Positions 4,229-16,931 of a stretch of DNA of 16,931 nucleotides are shown piece after piece. The notes beneath the pieces were generated by a model. It searched no databases. It was not told the DNA's origin and saw nothing but the letters and a program-made list of their open reading frames with translations. The stretch lies in the IMG/VR virus record IMGVR_UViG_3300029095_000223; one strand, 5' to 3'. Made by a program: the position numbers and the translations under genes. Each line of letters starts with the position of its first letter. The stretch's first letter is position 1. The stretch is from a virus. Taxonomy: Duplodnaviria; Heunggongvirae; Uroviricota; Caudoviricetes.

Positions 4229-4435
4229 CTTCATTTTCACTTTTTTAAATCCAACGACAGACGGCTGGCATTTAAGTATTGTGAAATATTATCAAATGTA
4301 ATCATCATTGATTTACAAAAGATACATTTTGCCCCGAAAGGATTCATGTCAGAAACATCAAAAGATGATGTTCTATACTGGGAACCATGACAACACGGGC
4401 ATCTAAAGTGAATATGGTTTGTAATATTGTCTACC

Positions 4436-4648
4436 TCAAAGCGCCACTACATGAACAGCGGCAGGACCTTTAGGTCCGTTCTCAATACCAAATTCAACTT
4501 CCTGATTCTCAGTTAATGTTTTGAAATCGTTGCTCTGAATTGCTGAGAAATGGACAAACACATCTTTGCTGCCATCTTTCGGCGTGATGAAACCAAAACC
4601 TTTTTCAGGGTTAAACCATTTCACTAAACCAGTCATTTTGTTAGACAT
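4436..4648 (-). CDS. cspI: Cold-shock protein CspI (CspA family)
   Basis: 70-aa translation [70 protein letters not shown] has the CspA-family cold-shock domain motifs. AAGG Shine-Dalgarno upstream and a long AT-rich leader. Confidence 0.9.
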
Positions 4649-5010
4649 AATTATTACCTTTTGAAGAAATTAGCCCTTGGGCAGAATGGTCCGAAAAAAA
4701 ATATCAGAGAGAAAAACCAACAAGGAAATCTCAAGAGGTACAAATAATAAAATTATAACAATGACTGCTTCAGATAAATTTGTAACAAACCAGAACACCA
4801 TTAACGCATGATTAACCACCCATAGCAAGGATTACTTTTGTAAAGAAAAACACAGCAATGAAAGAATAGTTTTATTTATTAATAAAACGTGTCATTCTGA
4901 TTAAGACCTTTTATCTTACCCTTAAGATTTCAGGAATTTTGGCTCATGGAAGAGTCCTTTTTATTTAAATTTTACATTCCGCGATGTAAATGTTCCGATT
5001 TAATATTACC

Positions 5011-7038: not shown

Positions 7039-7319
7039 GAGATTGTGGTGCTTTTTGTGGGAGTCATCCACTTACGCACTTTGTTTTGCCATGCCAGCAG
7101 TTAGCTTCTGCTGTAAAACTATTCATGCAGCAAACCTGCACTTCACCACAATGGTTAGCATACTTTTCCTGATTAAGATTTTGCCAAATATGCTAGCCAT
7201 TGTTTCATGTATTGGACCTCCTTACTTTTTATTAAAGAGATCCAATATTCACTACTCTGTCCGTATCTCTACTCAGGCATCAGCCTTCTTCGTTATCGTA
7301 TACAGACGAGCGATGAATT

Positions 7320-7535
7320 TTAATCAGTAATGATGACATTTGCTGCTGCAGGACCTTTAGCACCACTCTCTATAGAGAAGGTAACCTTTTGACCTTCAAA
7401 TAAGGTTCGATAATTATCATTCTGAATCGCAGAAAAATGCACAAACACATCTTTACTACCATCAACAGGAGAAATAAAGCCGAAACCTTTATCAGCGTTA
7501 AACCATTTTACTAAACCAGTCATTTTATTTGACAT
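7320..7535 (-). CDS. cspB: Cold-shock protein CspB (CspA family)
   Basis: 71-aa translation [71 protein letters not shown]. Divergent from cspF as in Qin. Confidence 0.9.
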
Positions 7536-7835
7536 TCTACATTCCTTAACTTGAGCCTTTCGGCATAAATGGTTTGCATAACAGAAACGACTTCGTACTT
7601 AATTGGAGAGACTCAAAGAAGGAATAAGTGAATAACACCTGAAATGAGAACTGCTTTAGTAAACTACTTCGTATATCGTCTGTTCTTCAAACCGACGCAA
7701 TCATTAACGCATAGTTGAACATATGAAGCAATGTTTATTTTAGACATCCAGCCATCTTCAACCCCATCAAAAAACTATAGCTTTCTTCAGGAACGTGTGT
7801 ATAGTGCGCCAAGTTATCAGTATTAAGGAATTTTT

Positions 7836-11099: not shown

Positions 11100-11255
11100 T
11101 TACTCCTCAGGTTCGTAAGCTGTGAAGACAGCGACCTCCGTCTGGCCGGTTCGGATTCGTACCTCGCAGAGGTCTTTCCTCGTTACCAGTGCCGTCACTA
11201 TGACGGTTAAACAGATGACGATCAGGGCGATTAACATCGCCTTTTGCTGCTTCAT
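11100..11255 (-). CDS. hokD: Hok-family membrane toxin HokD (RelF), 51 aa
   Basis: Not in the ORF track as a minus-strand gene. Reverse-complement of 11100-11255 translates MKQQKAMLIALIVICLTVIVTALVTRKDLCEVRIRTGQTEVAVFTAYEPEE, then TAA. Sits 71 nt downstream of relE. Confidence 0.9.
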   Translation of the reverse strand: MKQQKAMLIALIVICLTVIVTALVTRKDLCEVRIRTGQTEVAVFTAYEPEE

Positions 11256-11326
11256 AGCCTGCTTCTCCTGTCAACGCAAAGCAGAAGTGTCACCTTCGGT
11301 GCGAAACAGAGATGTCATGCTTTGGT

Positions 11327-11614
11327 TCAGAGAATGCGTTTGACCGCCTCGCTATATACTTCCGAGCGTTCTCTTTTCCCAACAGAAATCACGAAAACGA
11401 CAACTTTCTCGTCTATAACCTGGTATACAAGGCGATAGCCTGAAGACCGGAGCTTAATCTTGTAACAATCAGGCATACCACGGAGCTTGTTTGCTTCAAT
11501 CCGGGGTGACTCAAGTACTTCAACCAGCTTCTTTTTCAACTGTTCACGTACCGTCGAGCCCAGCTTTCGCCATTCCTTTAGTGCCCGCTCGTCAAAATCC
11601 AGAAAATACGCCAT
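11327..11614 (-). CDS. relE: mRNA interferase toxin RelE
   Basis: 95-aa translation MAYFLDFDERALKEWRKLGSTVREQLKKKLVEVLESPRIEANKLRGMPDCYKIKLRSSGYRLVYQVIDEKVVVFVISVGKRERSEVYSEAVKRIL matches E. coli RelE as recalled. Start overlaps the relB stop. Confidence 0.95.
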   Translation of the reverse strand: MAYFLDFDERALKEWRKLGSTVREQLKKKLVEVLESPRIEANKLRGMPDCYKIKLRSSGYRLVYQVIDEKVVVFVISVGKRERSEVYSEAVKRIL

Positions 11615-11853
11615 CAGAGTTCATCCAGCGTCACACGTACTGGCTTAGGATTACGAAGCCGTTCTTTCACTATCTCCACAAGTTCAGCATCTTCATCACT
11701 CAGGAGTGTCTGTTTGAACGGCAAGCGTTCATTGTCAGCGATATACTCGAGCATGAGACGAAGCGCTTCAGAAGGAGTTACACCCATTTTTTCAAGCGCG
11801 GCGTAAGAACGCGCTTTAAGTTCATCGTCAATACGCAGGTTAATGCTACCCAT
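11614..11853 (-). CDS. relB: Antitoxin RelB
   Basis: 79-aa translation MGSINLRIDDELKARSYAALEKMGVTPSEALRLMLEYIADNERLPFKQTLLSDEDAELVEIVKERLRNPKPVRVTLDEL matches RelB as recalled. Operon order relB-relE-hokD. Confidence 0.95.
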   Translation of the reverse strand: MGSINLRIDDELKARSYAALEKMGVTPSEALRLMLEYIADNERLPFKQTLLSDEDAELVEIVKERLRNPKPVRVTLDEL

Positions 11854-11864
11854 GTCTTACACCT

Positions 11865-11890
11865 CTTGTAATTACAAATGTCATTACAAG
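11865..11890 (-). promoter_or_regulatory. relBE operator/promoter region (relO-like palindrome)
   Basis: cttgtaat-tacaaatgtc-attacaag: inverted repeats immediately upstream of the relB start (11853), consistent with the TTGTAAT-repeat operator bound by RelB2-RelE. Confidence 0.6.
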
Positions 11891-12183
11891 TATCGCACTA
11901 CAACATGCTTAGGGCAAGTCACGAAGGAAGTCAGAAAGTAGTCGTAAGAACGGTGATCACTGTCCGCTTTGTGCCAGGAGCAGCCATTGCTAAGTCCATC
12001 CTGTATTGTGCAGGTCAGCTCGTTTTTAAAGAGTCCGGCCATCATCTTACTGGTACAGACACCATATACTTTGTGACGGTCAGGCTACATATGCACAACT
12101 CAACTTATTCATCTATTTTTTGCTTTAGCATGTCAGTGTTGCTTTCTCGTCGGCGGGTGAGCGGTGACCTGAACTGTCGATAA
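11878..12183 (+). CDS. YdfV-like hypothetical protein (101 aa); coding status doubtful
   Basis: 101-aa ORF divergent from relB whose ATG lies inside the rel operator. Size and position match K-12 ydfV as recalled. No recognisable motifs, no strong Shine-Dalgarno. Confidence 0.4.
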   Translation: MSLQVSHYNMLRASHEGSQKVVVRTVITVRFVPGAAIAKSILYCAGQLVFKESGHHLTGTDTIYFVTVRLHMHNSTYSSIFCFSMSVLLSRRRVSGDLNCR

Positions 12184-12335
12184 AGGAACGTAACACGTTT
12201 TATGCAACACCCGCATGCGGCAGAAAATTATTGCCGAACGTTTACCCCTGTCAACAAGCTTTACTTTCTGAGGCGCGCCAGCCCGCGAGGAAAACAATCT
12301 GAACATCAAACAATTAATGACACAAGAAATACGAT

Positions 12336-12362
12336 TAAAGATTTTTTTGTGCATGCCGATAG
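12336..12362 (+). promoter_or_regulatory. Sigma-28 (FliA) class-3 flagellar promoter for flxA
   Basis: TAAAGATT-11 nt-GCCGATAG versus consensus TAAAGTTT-N11-GCCGATAA. About 25 nt upstream of the flxA Shine-Dalgarno (AAAGGAG) and start. Confidence 0.65.
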
Positions 12363-12385
12363 TGCTTTTTTAAAAGGAGAAATCT

Positions 12386-12718
12386 ATGTCTGTCACAATT
12401 CAGGGAAATACCTCAACCGTTATTTCAAACAACTCCGCCCCGGAAGGAACATCAGAAATAGCCAAAATCACAAGACAAATTCAGGTGCTGACTGAAAAGC
12501 TTGGGAAAATCTCATCGGAAGAGGGGATGACGACACAGCAGAAAAAAGAAATGGCTGCATTGGTACAGAAGCAAATTGAAAGCCTCTGGGCTCAACTGGA
12601 GCAGTTGTTAAGGCAGCAGGCAGAGAAAAAGAATGAAGACGCGACAGTTCAGCCTGATAAAAAAGAAGAGAAAAAAGACGATACAAATACCGCTGGCACC
12701 ATTGATATTTACGTCTAA
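12386..12718 (+). CDS. flxA: FlxA (FliA-regulated protein)
   Basis: 110-aa translation MSVTIQGNTSTVISNNSAPEGTSEIAKITRQIQVLTEKLGKISSEEGMTTQQKKEMAALVQKQIESLWAQLEQ... matches FlxA as recalled. Strong Shine-Dalgarno. Confidence 0.9.
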   Translation: MSVTIQGNTSTVISNNSAPEGTSEIAKITRQIQVLTEKLGKISSEEGMTTQQKKEMAALVQKQIESLWAQLEQLLRQQAEKKNEDATVQPDKKEEKKDDTNTAGTIDIYV

Positions 12719-12732
12719 GTGACAGCCGTATT

Positions 12733-12759
12733 GTGGCCCTCATCGGGCCACTTTTCGCC
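12733..12759 (+). terminator. Intrinsic terminator after flxA
   Basis: gtggccc-tcatc-gggccac hairpin followed by TTTTCGCC, 15 nt downstream of the flxA stop. Confidence 0.55.
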
Positions 12760-13154
12760 ATCAGCCTTTTCTTTAAAGACATATTATCTTTGTATCATTT
12801 CTGATAGTTAACATTACAAGATATAAGTAATGGACGCACTCCCAATTAGTCTATTTAAATCGCCACGAGTTTAACTGACAACCCATGATCAATTATGAAT
12901 TGCAACTATTTCTGTAGTCACTTTTGTGGGGACAGTCCACAAAACTGCCAACTTCCGCTTCTTGCTCTTAGCGGACATTAGCATAGGCTATTTACCATAA
13001 CGCCTCATTACGCGCACCGCCCAGACTGACTCAGCGCGTTTCTGGCATATCCCCGGTAAAACAAGTAACAAACCACCCGAAAATGAACACCAGAAACGCG
13101 ACTTAAGAATCTACCCTATGAATGGATATGCACTCAACCGAATCGATCTTGGTT

Positions 13155-14468
13155 TCAATCTTTTTTATCGGGATCAGGCTTCTTTTTAGGTAACTTCGGG
13201 GGCTTAACTTGCTGATGACTTTGCGTTCGGCGCGTAAGCCAGGGATGGTCAGCTTTAGGTTTAACATAGTATTTTGAGCGTAAATCAATACGGGCATTAT
13301 CCACTCGTTCATGGACACTCTTTTCATCATCCAGTGGTATAGGCTCCGGGCCATCAACATACTTTTCCCAGCCCAGCGCTTTCCCGTCATACAGAACGTT
13401 AATTTCACCGTCAAAGTTCTCGCATACAGTAACAACCGAATGCCTAAGTCGATATCCCCGGCCCTCACTGCGTACCTGAAACGCACTGCTTTTGTACTGG
13501 AAAGTGAGATTTTTAGACAGAACGCGCTTCGCCTGTAGGCTGAAGATATAACCCAGTTCCTCTTCAGAATGGTGCACATCAAGATGAGCATTATCAGTAG
13601 TACGAGGCGACGTAGCGAACCGGTTGTTATAGGCTTCAATAAAGGTCGGCAACCATGCATTTGCTGTTTCAATATCACTGATATTCTGAAGCCGCATTTC
13701 TTTGACCAGCCTGTCCTGTAGTGTCTGATTGGCGCGCTCTACCCGCCCTTTTGCCTGCGGGCTGTTGGCATGGATTGGCTCGATGCCCAGTGTCTTTATC
13801 GCACGAGTGAACTGGGTCAGCTCACCTTCCCGCTCTGGGTTATTTACCCTGAATATACTGTGTCTATCAGAGTAGAGAGCGAGCGGTACGCCATGATCAT
13901 TAAGGTAACCCCGGAGGGTTTCCATGTAAGCCCGGGTTGTTTCAGCAGGCACAAAACGCAACGCCATCAACGCACTGGTGGCATCATCAATGAAAACGAT
14001 CAGTGTACATCTGGGGCCTCGATTTTCAAACCAGTCATGAGGTGAGCCATCAATCTGGATCAGTTCACCGTAAGATGGTCGTCGCATGCGGCGTTGATAT
14101 ATACGGGCAATTTTACGACGGCGTTCACGCCATAACCCCTCTTCTATCATCCACTTTCTGAGAGTTTCAACGGATAAAGATAAACCGTGTATCTCGCGCA
14201 ATTTTTCGCACGCAAACGTAGGTCCAAAATCAGCGTAACGGCCTTTGAGGAGTGAAATTACTGTTGCTCTGAATTCAGTAGAAAAGGAATTATTAGGACG
14301 CTTTCCACGTCGGTGGGAAACCAGACCAGAAGGCCCTTCATTTCTATACCGTTGCACCAGACGTTTAACCTGCCGAATAGAAATGCCAATGCGTGCCGCA
14401 GCTTGTTCCTGAATAATCTGAAGTCGGTGGAGTTCCTTATGACTCATCGTAACAGTCTCTTTGATCAT
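13155..14468 (-). CDS. DDE transposase/integrase-core protein with N-terminal helix-turn-helix (IS481/ISNCY-type), 437 aa
   Basis: ORF with N-terminal HTH-like region (MSHKELHRLQIIQEQAAARIGISIRQVKRLVQRYRNEG) and an rve-like core (LIQIDGSPHDWF...LIVFIDDATS...LYSDRHSIF...ANSPQAKGRVERANQTLQ). Basic C-terminal tail. ATG at 14468 with a GGGGG Shine-Dalgarno upstream. Family assignment is from motif recognition only. Confidence 0.85.
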   Translation of the reverse strand: MIKETVTMSHKELHRLQIIQEQAAARIGISIRQVKRLVQRYRNEGPSGLVSHRRGKRPNNSFSTEFRATVISLLKGRYADFGPTFACEKLREIHGLSLSVETLRKWMIEEGLWRERRRKIARIYQRRMRRPSYGELIQIDGSPHDWFENRGPRCTLIVFIDDATSALMALRFVPAETTRAYMETLRGYLNDHGVPLALYSDRHSIFRVNNPEREGELTQFTRAIKTLGIEPIHANSPQAKGRVERANQTLQDRLVKEMRLQNISDIETANAWLPTFIEAYNNRFATSPRTTDNAHLDVHHSEEELGYIFSLQAKRVLSKNLTFQYKSSAFQVRSEGRGYRLRHSVVTVCENFDGEINVLYDGKALGWEKYVDGPEPIPLDDEKSVHERVDNARIDLRSKYYVKPKADHPWLTRRTQSHQQVKPPKLPKKKPDPDKKD

Positions 14469-14686
14469 GAAAAATCCCCCAGAGAATTGTCTGGGGACAT
14501 TTTAGAATGGTTCAAAGGGGACATTACAGCTTGGTGTTAACAATAGCCTGCTTCTCCGTGCCTTTCGGCACGTAAGAGGCTAACCTACATGTGTCTAGCA
14601 TGAAATTGGCCTCAGATTAATGTTAAGCGTCTTGCAGGACGCGTAATGTTAACTGGGGCTTTTCTCTATCTGCCTTTGGTGTTCGT

Positions 14687-14726
14687 GCCCGAGGCAGATA
14701 GCCTCAAGCACCCGCCGTGATTCTAC
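14687..14726. repeat. 40-bp imperfect direct repeat, copy A (pairs with 16706-16745)
   Basis: gcccgaggcagatagcctcaagcacccgccgtgattctac; 32/40 ungapped identity with copy B, including a 14-nt exact core cctcaagcacccgc. Confidence 0.55.
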
Positions 14727-14951
14727 AAAAACATTACCCACCTTTCCAGCAATTCACAACAACTCCATGCAAATAGTAAGTAGAATAATAAGTTATTAGT
14801 ATTAGCAATTTACTTAGTTTCTAATTTGTGCCAATGATTTTCATTTTTGCATGAAAAATACCTTAACATTTTATATTTACTTACTATTTGTAAGCCCCAT
14901 CAGTTCTTTCTGATGGCGGCTGGTATTTCAGTTCCAGATATAGTATATGCT

Positions 14952-15980
14952 TTACGCCTTAATAGGGTTAATCACATTTCCGCTATCCGTACCATAGTAT
15001 TTTTTTGTAGTCATGCCTTGTTTATAATAATCATTTAACAGTTTGAGAAAGTTTCTTCCTTGCCTCTCATCTTCTATGACTAATTTACCATGCTCATTGG
15101 TCTTAAACTCTTCGTTCTGAAACATTTTTAGCACATCATTCATAGCTTGAACATCATTCTTTTCCAGAACCGTATGGTTACCTTTCTCAGCGATATGAGT
15201 GAGAATTTTTCTCAGTGATGGCTTATGAAGAATAGCTTGTTCAATAACATCTAAACCTTCAATAAGATCAAGTTCTTTAATTGTATTTAATGTTTTTTGT
15301 GCAGCTTCTGTAAACTCAACCTCCAAGCCTACAATAGCCTCAAAACTTTTCTTATGAAATACATAAAATTGATCTTTTATATAAACACAATCGATTTTGT
15401 CATCAAAATTGACTGCGCTGCCATCAAATGATCTTAACTCTTTATCTGTTTTATCAAACAAAGCGAATACGCGCTGAGTCATATTTTGTGGTTCATTTGT
15501 TGTGACTTTCCCCCTGCTGATTTTTCGGAAAGAATAAGTGACGTCAGCCCCCTTTTGGACTTTAATACAATAGGCCCACAAATCATTCTGAACCTCAGCA
15601 AGAGAGGTAAGTACAACTGGTTTATCATTCTTTATATCGTTATTAATAACTTTTGAAAACGATATCGCGTTATTCATAGCATAGGCATAAATCTTATTAT
15701 CAATATCATCATCAATAACAGTATACTTTTTCATCACAATATCATCTTTCGAAGCATGAGAAATAATCTGGTTTGATAAAGTATACTTAAAAAATTTAGC
15801 AATATCTGGAGCGATTGGAGCTTTAATGATTTTAAAATCGAATTTATCAACAACTCTTGCGGTTCTACTCATACCCGCTTTAAGATGTCTAGTAATGAAA
15901 TACAACGATATTTTCGCCGCATCATCATCCTTAAGTTGCTCAGCATACTCTAATAATTCTTCAAGCTTTAACATTTTCAT
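14952..15980 (-). CDS. Uncharacterised soluble protein (342 aa), second gene of an AT-rich two-gene operon; candidate defence-system component (KwaB-like by architecture only)
   Basis: Long clean ORF in very AT-rich DNA, with Lys/Asn/Asp/Ile-biased composition. Its ATG overlaps the upstream gene's TGA (ATGA at 15977-15980). No catalytic motif recognisable by eye. Confidence 0.8.
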   Translation of the reverse strand: MKMLKLEELLEYAEQLKDDDAAKISLYFITRHLKAGMSRTARVVDKFDFKIIKAPIAPDIAKFFKYTLSNQIISHASKDDIVMKKYTVIDDDIDNKIYAYAMNNAISFSKVINNDIKNDKPVVLTSLAEVQNDLWAYCIKVQKGADVTYSFRKISRGKVTTNEPQNMTQRVFALFDKTDKELRSFDGSAVNFDDKIDCVYIKDQFYVFHKKSFEAIVGLEVEFTEAAQKTLNTIKELDLIEGLDVIEQAILHKPSLRKILTHIAEKGNHTVLEKNDVQAMNDVLKMFQNEEFKTNEHGKLVIEDERQGRNFLKLLNDYYKQGMTTKKYYGTDSGNVINPIKA

Positions 15981-16591
15981 TCCTTATGGGATTCAGCATA
16001 AAAAAGTTTTGGGCCCACGTCCTCAACATCAAGAAGATCATCTTCCTCCAAATACTTTGATTTAGTCAAAACCATACCAGTGCGTTTTTTGTCGCTTTCT
16101 AAATCCAAATATGTAACTTGATATAAAGTATAATTAATACTTATTGTAGGATTTATAAGTATCATGCTTGAATTAATATATATTAAAGCCGTTACCGTTA
16201 ACAATATTGCTATAGGTATAACATTAGTTAAAGTGGATAGATCCTGAAATACAAACGGAATTATATATGTAAAAAGATAGCTTATTGATTCATTGTTTTT
16301 ATTTTCAATATCTATAACTCTTACAGTTCTACCACTAGTGGCGCATCGACGTTTTATATTTTTTAAAAAAATTGTTAATCCTACAATACCAAATAATGAT
16401 AATACACCAATGACACTGACCGCGCCAAAGTATTTAAAGAAAATAGTTAATGATTCAACACTTATACCTTTCCAATTTAAATAGCTTCTATAAGTATACA
16501 ATTGCACAAAACACATGATAAAGAATAGGGGAAGGTATGACACTATAAATAGCGAAACTCTAGCACCTAAATGTAGTTTATTTACTCTCAT
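15977..16591 (-). CDS. Predicted integral membrane protein (204 aa, about 4 TM helices plus acidic C-terminal tail), first gene of the two-gene operon; candidate defence-system membrane component (KwaA-like by architecture only)
   Basis: Hydrophobic segments VSLFIVSYLPLFFIMCFVQLYTY, YFGAVSVIGVLSLFGIVGLTIFL, ISYLFTYIIPFVF and VIPIAILLTVTALIYINSSMILI, with a basic loop KNIKRRCATSGR. Translationally coupled to the downstream gene. Confidence 0.8.
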   Translation of the reverse strand: MRVNKLHLGARVSLFIVSYLPLFFIMCFVQLYTYRSYLNWKGISVESLTIFFKYFGAVSVIGVLSLFGIVGLTIFLKNIKRRCATSGRTVRVIDIENKNNESISYLFTYIIPFVFQDLSTLTNVIPIAILLTVTALIYINSSMILINPTISINYTLYQVTYLDLESDKKRTGMVLTKSKYLEEDDLLDVEDVGPKLFYAESHKE

Positions 16592-16705
16592 AACTACCCC
16601 ACAGCCTACACGTCTAGTATTTTATGTTATTTCGAATAATTATGCATCAGATTACCATCCTACAATTGTGCATAAAACGAGCATTTTGCTGATTTTTCTG
16701 CGGAT

Positions 16706-16745
16706 GCCTGAGACAGACAACCTCAAGCACCCGCAGCAATTTTAC
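16706..16745. repeat. 40-bp imperfect direct repeat, copy B (pairs with 14687-14726)
   Basis: gcctgagacagacaacctcaagcacccgcagcaattttac; same orientation as copy A. Together the two copies bracket the two-gene AT-rich operon. Confidence 0.55.
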
Positions 16746-16931
16746 TTAACTCCCGCTACCTCGCCAATATGAAATCAATAAGAAAGGTGCTCCATAAAAT
16801 CACTCCTTCTCTTCTTTATCGTAGTGGAGTTGACCAATTTTGATAAGAGGGCGTCCCTGAGATTTGCGGTGTAGATTGGTATCGCGCAGAGAATACACAC
16901 AGCCACAATATTCCTGCTGATAGAATTTTTC

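What the first reader, a model, noticed from the sequence alone, without database searches (positions are those of the whole stretch)
14687..16745. 40-bp imperfect direct repeats (14-nt exact core) bracketing the two-gene cassette
Copies at 14687-14726 and 16706-16745 share 32/40 ungapped identity and the same orientation, and lie just outside the 3' end and the promoter region of the cassette. A 14-mer match alone could be chance in 17 kb, but the flanking 18/26 identities make it unlikely. They could be recombination/att-like sites of a small mobile cassette, duplicated IS-end or target sequence, or relics of a site-specific insertion hotspot.
Basis: seen in the sequence. Interest (0 to 1): 0.6.

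Follow-up and report, generated by a model that had tools for sequence, protein, structure and literature searches.

The report
Duplicated hok promoter ends flank Kiwa
The two 40-bp repeats are two partial copies of the start (promoter and first RNA hairpin) of a prophage hok toxin gene, left on either side of a Kiwa anti-phage gene pair that was inserted there once; it shows how a defence cassette can enter a phage without a recombinase of its own, but it is not a new kind of mobile element.

Summary
The repeat is real: 32/40, or 33/41 at 14686-14726 vs 16705-16745, with a 14-nt exact core and about 2e-6 expected by chance. On the minus strand both copies are positions -13 to +29 of a hok/sok type I toxin-antitoxin locus, i.e. 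the -10 box plus the mRNA 5' end (tac element and metastable hairpin). Between them lies a 1977-bp, 30%-GC Kiwa defence cassette (kwaA, kwaB; 14727-16703). It occurs in 156 of 5426 complete E. coli genomes, always once and always at this site. About 4000 cassette-free genomes have one copy, and their homology breaks exactly at the repeat edges. One of them (NCTC9022) equals outer half of B + core + outer half of A, 182/182. But the cassette has no recombinase, transposase or terminal inverted repeats, no circular or donor junction was found, and no other cargo uses the site. The best reading is a single recombinational insertion into the hok 5' end. Copy B then supplies a promoter and 5' hairpin to kwaAB, and copy A keeps hok expressible (intact in 7 of the 12 carriers whose downstream flank could be read). 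The flanking hok homology lets flanks be exchanged and the cassette be lost. Modest interest. Side finding: relBE sits in an IS1202-family transposon with a 15-bp duplication in the same hok locus.

The parts
16704..16745 (-). Copy B: hok positions -13..+29 (+1 = 16732). It is continuous with the conserved hok promoter upstream (to about 16798) and is cut off at +29, where cassette DNA begins.
   Evidence: Alignment with 933W hokW, HannyBb, PhiR42_1 and cassette-free E. coli alleles. In about 4000 cassette-free genomes flank homology starts at 16704.
14685..14726 (-). Copy A: hok positions -13..+29 (+1 = 14713). Homology to hok loci begins at -13 (14726) and runs on into the full leader.
16721..16734 (-). 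14-nt exact core GCGGGTGCTTGAGG in copy B (hok -2..+12; tac element).
   Evidence: The same 14-mer is invariant in all fetched hok loci.
14702..14715 (-). 14-nt exact core in copy A (hok -2..+12; tac element).
   Evidence: In intact hok mRNAs it pairs with the 3' fbi-like element CCUCAA(C/U)GCACCC at about +375.
14727..16703 (-). Kiwa cassette, 1977 bp, about 30% GC. It includes private non-coding ends (14727-14951 and 16592-16703).
   Evidence: 156 of 5426 genomes carry it, all at 99% identity or more, one place each, none on plasmids. The non-coding ends are found only together with Kiwa. GC drop. No terminal inverted repeats.
15977..16591 (-). kwaA (204 aa).
   Evidence: PADLOC KwaA PDLC00212, E=1.3e-101. 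Distant match to solved KwaA chains.
14952..15980 (-). kwaB (342 aa, DUF4868).
   Evidence: Pfam PF16162, 3.7e-16. PADLOC KwaB PDLC00223, 5.3e-159. Distant match to solved KwaB chains.
16739..16767 (-). hok-type sigma-70 promoter of copy B (TTGGCG-17-TAAAAT), now upstream of kwaA. It is the only promoter-like match between the upstream gene and the kwaA start codon.
   Evidence: The hexamers are conserved in natural hok alleles.
14720..14748 (-). Promoter of copy A: hok -10 box (TAGAAT) with a -35-like TGGAAA supplied by the end of the cassette.
14542..14713 (-). hok mRNA 5' leader (sok/mok region) that continues from copy A.
   Evidence: Rfam RF01794, 105.6 bits against a gathering score of 59, model positions 1-157.
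11269..14542 (-). Second insertion in the same hok locus: an IS1202-family (ISNCY) transposon carrying relB, relE, ydfV-like and flxA-like genes. It separates the leader from the hokD ORF in this window.
   Evidence: Terminal inverted repeats 22/30 (0 of 20000 random pairs reach this). ISNCY transposase NF033594, 7e-137. Flanking exact 15-mer at 11254-11268 and 14543-14557. NCTC9022 has one copy of the 15-mer and no block.
11100..11255 (-). hokD ORF (51 aa), the body of the hok locus whose 5' end is copy A.
16800..16931 (-). 3' end of a QueH-like gene, the conserved neighbour upstream of the hok locus. It runs off the window.
   Evidence: Annotation of identical regions in E. coli genomes.

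Best explanation
The repeats are two partial, homologous copies of the 5' end of a prophage hok/sok locus. Each covers the -10 promoter box, the transcription start, the tac element and the metastable 5' hairpin (hok -13..+29). They were left on either side of a Kiwa (kwaA-kwaB) defence cassette that entered the hok 5' end of a Qin-like lambdoid prophage once.

Shown: the identity of the repeats, the exact junctions, one copy in empty alleles, a single-site distribution, the absence of a recombinase or transposase, and exchange of the outer flanks among carriers.

Inferred:
(1) The insertion arose by general or phage-mediated short-homology recombination whose exchange point lies in the 14-nt core. 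The partners would be a resident hok and incoming DNA that carried the cassette joined to its own diverged hok-like 5' segment. This gives attL/attR-like hybrid copies without any site-specific enzyme.
(2) Copy B now gives kwaAB a constitutive hok-type promoter and a 12-bp 5'-terminal stem-loop. Copy A keeps a -10 box, start site and tac element, so the downstream hok/sok module stays functional.
(3) The two copies and the adjoining hok sequence act as homology arms. Through them the flanks are swapped with other lambdoid prophages, and the cassette can be lost by recombination between A and B.
For: Identity of the repeats: Rfam sok/hok-leader model hit starting at 14713. Alignment with hokW of 933W and six other hok loci. 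The duplicated transcribed part folds into a 5' hairpin in both copies (-18.3 and -20.9 kcal/mol, z about -5). The core pairs with a conserved 3' element in intact hok mRNAs, as described for tac/fbi and the metastable structure in PMC9841398.

Junctions and empty sites: hok homology ends at 14726. Flank homology begins at 16704 in about 4000 genomes. NCTC9022 carries the same prophage backbone without the insert, and one 41-nt stretch of it matches both copies. A synthetic junction of B outer half + core + A outer half matches NCTC9022 182/182.

Single event: 156 of 5426 genomes, one place each, 99% identity or more, all with both flanks. The private non-coding ends occur only with Kiwa.

Flank exchange: there are two kinds of promoter flank before B and at least three leader alleles after A, while the cassette-proximal halves are invariant.

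Hybrid pattern: 9/28 mismatches in the inner halves against 0/28 in the outer halves relative to NCTC9022 (p=0.0009).

Functional reading: the only promoter-like site upstream of kwaA is the hok promoter of copy B, and there is no terminator-like site between kwaB and copy A. hok is intact in 7 of the 12 carriers whose downstream flank could be read.

Not a transposon: no terminal inverted repeats. Pfam and PADLOC find only KwaA and KwaB in the cassette.
Against: The donor-type unsplit allele (inner half of A + core + inner half of B) was not found in IMG/VR, JGI metagenomes, E. coli genomes, plasmids or phages. The best natural alleles reach 38/42.

The inner/outer asymmetry is circular if NCTC9022 is itself a deletion product of a carrier. 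Its exact haplotype is unique among 5426 genomes and absent from IMG/VR. Against independent natural alleles the asymmetry is only 4/28 vs 1/28, which is not significant.

The 14-nt core is shorter than the homology usually needed for efficient RecA recombination (my own knowledge, not tested here).

Promoter use, the transcription starts and any stabilising role of the hairpin are untested. Distant Kiwa loci share only the coding sequences and have no hok motif, so the immediate source of the cassette is unknown.
Confidence: 0.6

Rival explanations
1. Two independent illegitimate joints. Foreign Kiwa DNA was joined to phage DNA at hok +29 on one side and at hok -13 on the other, either in one double event on two sister or concatemeric phage genomes, or in two steps involving two hok alleles. 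The 42-nt overlap is then a by-product with no role in the insertion. The differences between the copies come from different parental alleles or from later drift and flank exchange.
For: Sequence parsimony does not separate this from the crossover model. Each whole copy is 3 changes from its nearest natural allele, against 4 for the inferred donor allele. The two private changes in the inner half of copy B (+13, +15) fall in the loop of its hairpin, as expected for neutral drift after truncation. No donor or circular junction was found. Moron-type insertions by illegitimate recombination are the accepted origin of lambdoid mosaic joints (my own knowledge).
Against: It needs both joints to fall within 42 nt of each other. 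It does not predict that all differences between the copies lie outside the 14-nt core, nor the clean inner/outer split relative to NCTC9022, unless NCTC9022 is a secondary deletion.
Confidence: 0.27
2. True att sites. The cassette is a small non-autonomous integrative element, like a cis-mobilisable element or an IMEX. It would be moved in trans by a site-specific recombinase encoded elsewhere, which recognises the imperfect palindrome of the hok 5' hairpin (12-nt arms, 5-7-nt spacer). Copy B would be attL and copy A attR.
For: Direct repeats sit exactly at the boundaries, the empty site has one copy, and the copies look like hybrids. As DNA the duplicated segment is an imperfect palindrome. 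The cassette lacks a recombinase of its own, as IMEX-type elements do.
Against: Only one site and one event are seen in 5426 genomes. No other cargo is found at this junction in IMG/VR. No joined attP-like sequence exists in any collection searched. The exchange maps to one arm (-2..+12) and the putative spacers differ at 2 of 7 positions, which normally blocks tyrosine recombinases (my own knowledge). By my own comparison the site shares only 7 of 28 positions with E. coli dif. Conservation of the core is already explained by RNA structure.
Confidence: 0.08
3. A very long target-site duplication made by a transposase, for example the neighbouring IS1202-family enzyme, whose family makes direct repeats of up to 27-29 bp, acting on the Kiwa cassette in trans.
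For: An IS1202-family transposon with a 15-bp duplication lies in the same hok locus. The family is known for unusually long direct repeats.
Against: The Kiwa cassette has no terminal inverted repeats and no TGT ends (8/30, P=0.5; best 14/30 over offsets). The copies differ at 8 of 40 positions, whereas the 15-bp duplication next door is perfect. 42 bp exceeds any direct-repeat length reported for the family. Many carriers lack the transposon (7 of the 12 carriers whose downstream flank could be read have an uninterrupted hok).
Confidence: 0.02
4. Chance similarity, or a generic intergenic repeat unrelated to the cassette.
For: An exact 14-mer pair alone is expected 0.68 times in a window of this size. 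The hok 5' end is present several times in every E. coli genome.
Against: The full 32/40 match has an expectation of 2.4e-6. Both copies align in register with hok loci, and both cassette junctions coincide with the repeat edges.
Confidence: 0.01

Closest known systems
hok/sok (hokD/hokW-type) type I toxin-antitoxin loci of lambdoid prophages and plasmid R1: promoter, tac element and metastable 5' hairpin
   Same: Both copies are homologous to positions -13..+29 of these loci. Copy A continues into a full leader that matches Rfam RF01794. The core pairs with an fbi-like 3' element, and the +1..+29 segment folds into the nascent-transcript hairpin described for hok mRNA.
   Different: Copy B is only a 5' stub (promoter plus 29 nt) fused to a Kiwa operon in place of a hok leader. 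In this window copy A's locus is also split from its ORF by a transposon.
Morons and defence cassettes in lambdoid prophages: autonomous low-GC transcription units inserted between phage genes
   Same: A low-GC (about 30%) two-gene accessory unit with private non-coding ends lies in a variable region of the prophage between the replication genes and Q. Other alleles carry QueH, SIR2 or a hydrolase in the slot upstream of the same hok locus.
   Different: The insertion lies inside the 5' end of a toxin-antitoxin transcription unit and is flanked by a 42-nt duplication of that unit. It appears to borrow the hok promoter and not to bring its own.
attL/attR of integrative elements, and recombinase-less relatives (cis-mobilisable elements, Xer-dependent IMEX)
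   Same: Imperfect direct repeats with an identical core bracket the element, the empty site has one copy, and the copies look like hybrids.
   Different: No recombinase, no attP or circular junction, a single site and a single event, no resemblance to dif, and a core whose conservation is explained by RNA structure.
Kiwa defence system (KwaA membrane protein plus KwaB DUF4868; PMC11785009)
   Same: Both proteins match Kiwa profiles strongly and are arranged as an overlapping two-gene operon. The paper reports that about half of Kiwa loci sit on mobile elements, including prophages.
   Different: This subtype is only distantly related to the structurally solved O55:H7 system (E about 1e-5). 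Its insertion into a hok locus is not mentioned in that paper.

Membership tests
hok/sok type I toxin-antitoxin locus (5' region) | Match to the Rfam sok/hok-leader covariance model (RF01794) above its gathering score | tested here: met
   Copy A and its leader: 105.6 bits against a gathering score of 59, model positions 1-157, window 14713-14542. Copy B gives no hit because only 29 nt remain. Its membership rests on alignment.
hok/sok type I toxin-antitoxin locus (5' region) | The 5' tac element is complementary to a 3' fbi element, and a metastable hairpin forms at the 5' end | tested here: met
   The first 12 nt pair with CCUCAA(C/U)GCACCC at about +375 in intact carriers and in empty alleles, although the duplex energies as such were within about one standard deviation of the shuffled controls. 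The 5' hairpins have z about -5. Definition taken from PMC9841398.
hok/sok type I toxin-antitoxin locus (5' region) | A Hok-family toxin ORF downstream of the leader | tested here: met
   An intact 51-aa Hok ORF starts at +170 in 7 carriers. In this window the ORF (11100-11255) is separated from the leader by a 3.27-kb transposon.
Kiwa defence system | Adjacent kwaA and kwaB (DUF4868) genes matching Kiwa profiles | tested here: met
   PADLOC KwaA 1.3e-101 and KwaB 5.3e-159; Pfam PF16162 3.7e-16; the genes overlap by 4 nt.
Kiwa defence system | Protection against phage | not testable with these tools
   Requires plaque assays.
Integrative element att sites (attL/attR) | Direct repeats exactly at the element's boundaries, and an empty site with one copy | tested here: met
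Integrative element att sites (attL/attR) | Hybrid structure of the two copies (resident half plus element half around an identical core) | tested here: inconclusive
   9/28 vs 0/28 relative to NCTC9022. But NCTC9022 may itself be a deletion product, and against independent alleles the split is 4/28 vs 1/28.
Integrative element att sites (attL/attR) | A cognate site-specific recombinase in or next to the element | tested here: not met
   The cassette encodes only KwaA and KwaB. The neighbouring transposase belongs to a separate element with its own ends.
Integrative element att sites (attL/attR) | An excised or donor form with the joined site (attP-like), and repeated use of the site | tested here: not met
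   Zero hits for the joined sequence in IMG/VR and JGI metagenomes. One site and one event in E. coli. No other cargo at the junction.
Transposon or IS with target-site duplication | Terminal inverted repeats, a transposase, and an identical duplication | tested here: not met
   Ends match 8/30 (P=0.5), there is no transposase in the cassette, and the copies match only 32/40.
IS1202 family, ISTde1-like (side finding, block 11269-14542) | ISNCY/IS1202-type transposase, ends starting TGT with imperfect inverted repeats, and 15-17-bp direct repeats | tested here: met
   NF033594 7e-137. Ends TGTCAAC.../TGTTAAC... match 22/30. Exact 15-bp duplication. One copy in the uninterrupted allele. Family features taken from 10.1101/2022.12.17.520857. 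Subgroup placement by transposase phylogeny was not tested.

The most novel reading that the evidence does not exclude
The hok 5' hairpin and core is a genuine recombination site. Recombinase-less defence cassettes that carry their own hok-like 42-nt segment would loop out as circles and integrate into any hok locus (prophage, plasmid or chromosome), catalysed in trans by a phage or host recombinase. Type I toxin-antitoxin loci would then act as docking sites for defence genes, and the Kiwa cassette would be the first recognised member.
Probability: 0.08. Interest if true: 0.75.

Novelty: new member of a known kind. Interest (0 to 1): 0.4.

Why it matters
It gives a base-pair-resolved example of how a defence system enters and then spreads among temperate phages without mobility genes of its own. 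The cassette landed in the 5' end of a hok addiction module, so that each transcription unit kept a promoter and a 5' hairpin. It is now embedded in sequence that every lambdoid hok locus shares, so ordinary recombination can move it between prophages or delete it.

For people who clone Kiwa "with its native promoter" from E. coli, it also matters that this promoter may really be a hok promoter.

The side finding matters to the toxin-antitoxin field. The classical relBE-hokD (relBEF) arrangement of the Qin prophage appears to be the result of an IS1202-family transposon, carrying relBE as passengers, inserting between the hok ribosome-binding site and the hok start codon.

Tried and rejected
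1. Chance: rejected.

2. IS or transposon ends for the Kiwa cassette: rejected, no inverted repeats within +/-6 nt of either junction.

3. Search for the joined donor or circular junction. The exact 22-mer, a relaxed 22-mer, and each inner half in an ordinary hok context were searched in IMG/VR. The two 22-mers were also searched in JGI metagenomes. All gave nothing.

4. Search for a natural allele equal to the inferred donor 42-mer in E. coli genomes, plasmids and phages. The best were 38/42: hokC, a Photobacterium plasmid hok, and vB_EcoS-640R1. A 39/42 hit was copy B of carrier CEA224S.

5. Tracing the cassette's source through KwaB relatives. Loci from Yersinia, Symbiopectobacterium, a record labelled Martelella, and two IMG/VR contigs share only the coding sequences (74-80% nt) and have no hok motif. 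One 68% hit on a Vibrio plasmid was not informative.

6. Looking for other cargo that truncates hok at +29 in IMG/VR: only Kiwa carriers were found.

7. My first ungapped search for the fbi partner failed because of a 1-nt bulge. RNAduplex found it, though the duplex energies as such were not far from the shuffled controls, so the argument rests on the conserved, specific partner sequence.

8. Resemblance of the hairpin palindrome to E. coli dif: only 7 of 28 positions by my own comparison, rejected.

9. The inner/outer mismatch test against NCTC9022 is significant but possibly circular. I do not use it as proof.
Full report
OBSERVATION

The two copies are present as described. 14687-14726 and 16706-16745 share 32/40 ungapped identities with a 14-nt exact run. 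The repeat finder reports 41 nt at 80% identity (14686-14726 vs 16705-16745). An exact 14-mer pair alone is expected 0.68 times in a window of this size. The flanking 18/26 identities bring the expectation down to 2.4e-6, and none of 100 shuffles produced such a pair.

WHAT THE REPEATED SEQUENCE IS

Copy A lies inside a 184-bp stretch (14543-14726) that matches hok/mok/sok loci of many lambdoid phages, including hokW of 933W (annotation). Rfam's sok/hok-leader model (RF01794) matches 14713 to 14542 on the minus strand at 105.6 bits, against a gathering score of 59. So the hok mRNA starts at 14713.

I aligned both copies, read on the minus strand, with 933W, HannyBb, PhiR42_1 and three cassette-free E. 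coli alleles. Both copies are positions -13 to +29 of a hok locus. That is the -10 box (TAGAAT or TAAAAT), the start site, and the first 29 transcribed nucleotides.
- Copy B is continuous with the conserved hok promoter region upstream, as far as about -65 to -85, and loses homology after +29.
- Copy A gains homology at -13 and continues through the whole leader.

The transcribed part folds on its own into a 5'-terminal hairpin in both copies (B: 12 bp, -18.3 kcal/mol; A: 11 bp, -20.9 kcal/mol; z about -5). In a longer context copy A refolds into the long leader stem.

The first 12 nt, which are the exact core, pair with a conserved CCUCAA(C/U)GCACCC element at about +375 in intact hokD/W-type mRNAs. 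This matches the published description of the tac/fbi long-range interaction, and of the transient metastable structure in which tac pairs with the region immediately downstream (PMC9841398). The perfect conservation of the 14-nt core is therefore explained by RNA-structure constraint. The same 14-mer is invariant in every hok locus I fetched, and the 42-mer has relatives in all 5426 complete E. coli genomes, with a median of 4 places per genome.

WHAT LIES BETWEEN THE COPIES

The two ORFs are kwaA (15977-16591) and kwaB (14952-15980) of a Kiwa defence system. The evidence is PADLOC 1.3e-101 and 5.3e-159, and Pfam KwaB 3.7e-16. They are only distantly related to the structurally solved O55:H7 Kiwa. 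The region is about 30% GC, against 45-50% around it.

The 1977-bp segment 14727-16703 occurs in 156 of 5426 E. coli genomes. It is always present once, at 99% identity or more, never on a plasmid, and always with both flanks. Its non-coding ends (14727-14951 and 16592-16703) are found nowhere else in E. coli. More distant Kiwa loci in other genera share only the coding sequences and have no hok motif nearby.

JUNCTIONS AND EMPTY SITES

In about 4000 cassette-free genomes, homology to the right flank begins exactly at 16704. Homology of hok loci to the left side ends at 14726. Cassette-free alleles have a complete hok locus with a single copy of the segment, directly next to QueH, a SIR2 gene or a hydrolase.

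Strain NCTC9022 carries the same Qin-like prophage backbone, 98.2% identical over 8.3 kb, without the insert. One 41-nt stretch of it aligns to both copy A and copy B. A synthetic junction made of the outer half of B, the core and the outer half of A matches NCTC9022 182/182.

VARIATION AMONG CARRIERS

I examined thirteen carriers (the window, E. coli CEA224S, one MAG and IMG/VR contigs).
- The cassette-proximal halves of the repeats are invariant (A -13..-3 and B +13..+29).
- The outer flanks vary. There are two kinds of promoter flank before B (QueH-type with TAAAAT, and 933W-type with TAGAAT). There are at least three leader alleles after A, one of which switches right after the core (L018).
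- Of the 12 carriers whose downstream flank could be read, hok is intact in 7. In the other 5, including this window, it is interrupted by a transposon.

The flanks have therefore been exchanged by homologous recombination, with crossovers in or next to the repeats.

HOW THE INSERTION AROSE

The cassette is not a transposon. Its ends match at 8/30, which is chance level, and it encodes no transposase or recombinase.

Relative to NCTC9022, all differences lie in the inner halves (9/28) and none in the outer halves (0/28; p=0.0009). This is the attL/attR-like pattern expected from one reciprocal exchange within the 14-nt core. The partners would be a resident hok and incoming DNA carrying the cassette next to its own diverged hok-like segment.

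I do not treat this as proof, for three reasons.
- NCTC9022's haplotype is unique: 1 of 5426 genomes and none in IMG/VR. It could itself be a deletion product of a carrier, which would make the test circular.
- Against independent natural alleles the asymmetry is only 4/28 vs 1/28.
- The inferred donor allele was found nowhere. The joined sequence gave zero hits in IMG/VR and in JGI metagenomes. Neither inner half occurs in an ordinary hok context. The nearest natural alleles reach 38/42.

A model of two independent illegitimate joints at +29 and -13 remains viable. A dedicated site-specific system is unlikely for several reasons. There is one site and one event. No other cargo truncates hok at +29 in IMG/VR. 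The exchange maps to one arm of the palindrome, and the putative spacers differ between the two copies.

LIKELY CONSEQUENCES (INFERRED)

The only sigma-70-like site between the upstream gene and the kwaA start codon is the hok promoter of copy B (TTGGCG-17-TAAAAT, 16767 to 16739). The kwaAB transcript would then begin at 16732 with a 12-bp stem-loop, whose last two pairs are supplied by cassette DNA.

Copy A keeps its -10 box, with a -35-like TGGAAA provided by the cassette end. This fits the intact hok seen in many carriers. No terminator-like site separates kwaB from copy A, so read-through into the hok leader is possible.

COMPARISON AND NOVELTY

The repeats are members of the hok/sok 5' region family, and the cassette is a Kiwa system. 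The arrangement is best filed as a moron-type defence insertion with a recombination scar. It is not a new class of mobile element. The precise association is new in detail: Kiwa inside a hok 5' end, with duplicated promoter and hairpin, and a matching empty allele. I found no description of it. The Kiwa paper notes only that about half of Kiwa loci lie on mobile elements.

SIDE FINDING

The same hok locus is split a second time. The leader ends at GGAGAAGCAGGCTAT (14557-14543), and the same exact 15-mer precedes the hokD start codon (11268-11254). The chance expectation for that is 0.01.

The 3274-bp block in between has 22/30 terminal inverted repeats, and both ends start with TGT. It encodes an ISNCY-type transposase (NF033594, 7e-137) together with RelB, RelE, YdfV-like and FlxA-like proteins. 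NCTC9022 and other uninterrupted alleles have one copy of the 15-mer.

These features match the ISTde1 subgroup of the IS1202 family, which makes 15-17-bp direct repeats, has TGT ends and sometimes carries passenger genes. A review already states that relBE integrated into hokD (PMC6379469). It does not describe transposon ends or a target duplication in the passages I read.

Noticed in passing
window 11254-14557 (block 11269-14542; 15-mers at 11254-11268 and 14543-14557): relB, relE, ydfV-like and flxA-like genes, together with an ISNCY/IS1202-family transposase (13155-14468, minus strand), form a 3274-bp unit. It has 22/30 terminal inverted repeats starting with TGT and an exact 15-bp target duplication. 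It is inserted between the hok ribosome-binding site and the hokD start codon. Uninterrupted alleles have one copy of the 15-mer. This suggests that the classical relBE-hokD arrangement of the Qin prophage was created by a passenger-carrying IS1202-family transposon. Phage PhiR42_1 (L006) has the same arrangement.
   Followed up: partly
window 4409-4794 and 7304-7696 (minus strand): Two cspA-family cold-shock genes, each with a cspA thermoregulator 5' UTR (Rfam RF01766, 112.8 and 158.8 bits). They form the 200-nt, 73%-identical direct repeat D1 (spacing 2887) and correspond to the cspB/cspF-type genes of Qin-like prophages.
   Followed up: no
L003-L005, L009, L027 (the slot upstream of the hok promoter, equivalent to window positions above about 16800): The gene immediately upstream of the prophage hok locus varies between otherwise similar prophages: QueH, a SIR2-family protein, an alpha/beta hydrolase, or a DUF551 protein. 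Homology resumes at about hok -65 to -85. The hok promoter therefore marks one edge of a variable accessory-gene slot.
   Followed up: partly
L011 (JAGZPX010000007.1): A contig labelled as a Veillonella parvula MAG carries this E. coli prophage region with the Kiwa cassette, encoding a KwaB identical in amino-acid sequence to the window's. This is most likely a binning error in the metagenome-assembled genome.
   Followed up: no
L012 (NZ_SZPQ01000004.1): A genome labelled Martelella alba (an alphaproteobacterium) has a Kiwa locus about 80% identical in nucleotides to the E. coli one. That is unexpectedly close for such a distant host, so it is either recent transfer or a mislabelled or contaminated assembly.
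   Followed up: no
window 16616-16652 (minus strand), within the kwaA 5' untranslated region: A 7-bp inverted repeat, TTATGCA...TGCATAA, with a 23-nt spacer lies between copy B and the kwaA start codon. It could be an operator or an RNA element of the cassette's own regulation. Seen by eye in the sequence only.
   Followed up: no
E. coli genomes H32-H34 and H40: In several carriers the matched region contains additional IS150 or IS3 insertions, so this small region keeps accumulating insertion sequences.
   Followed up: no
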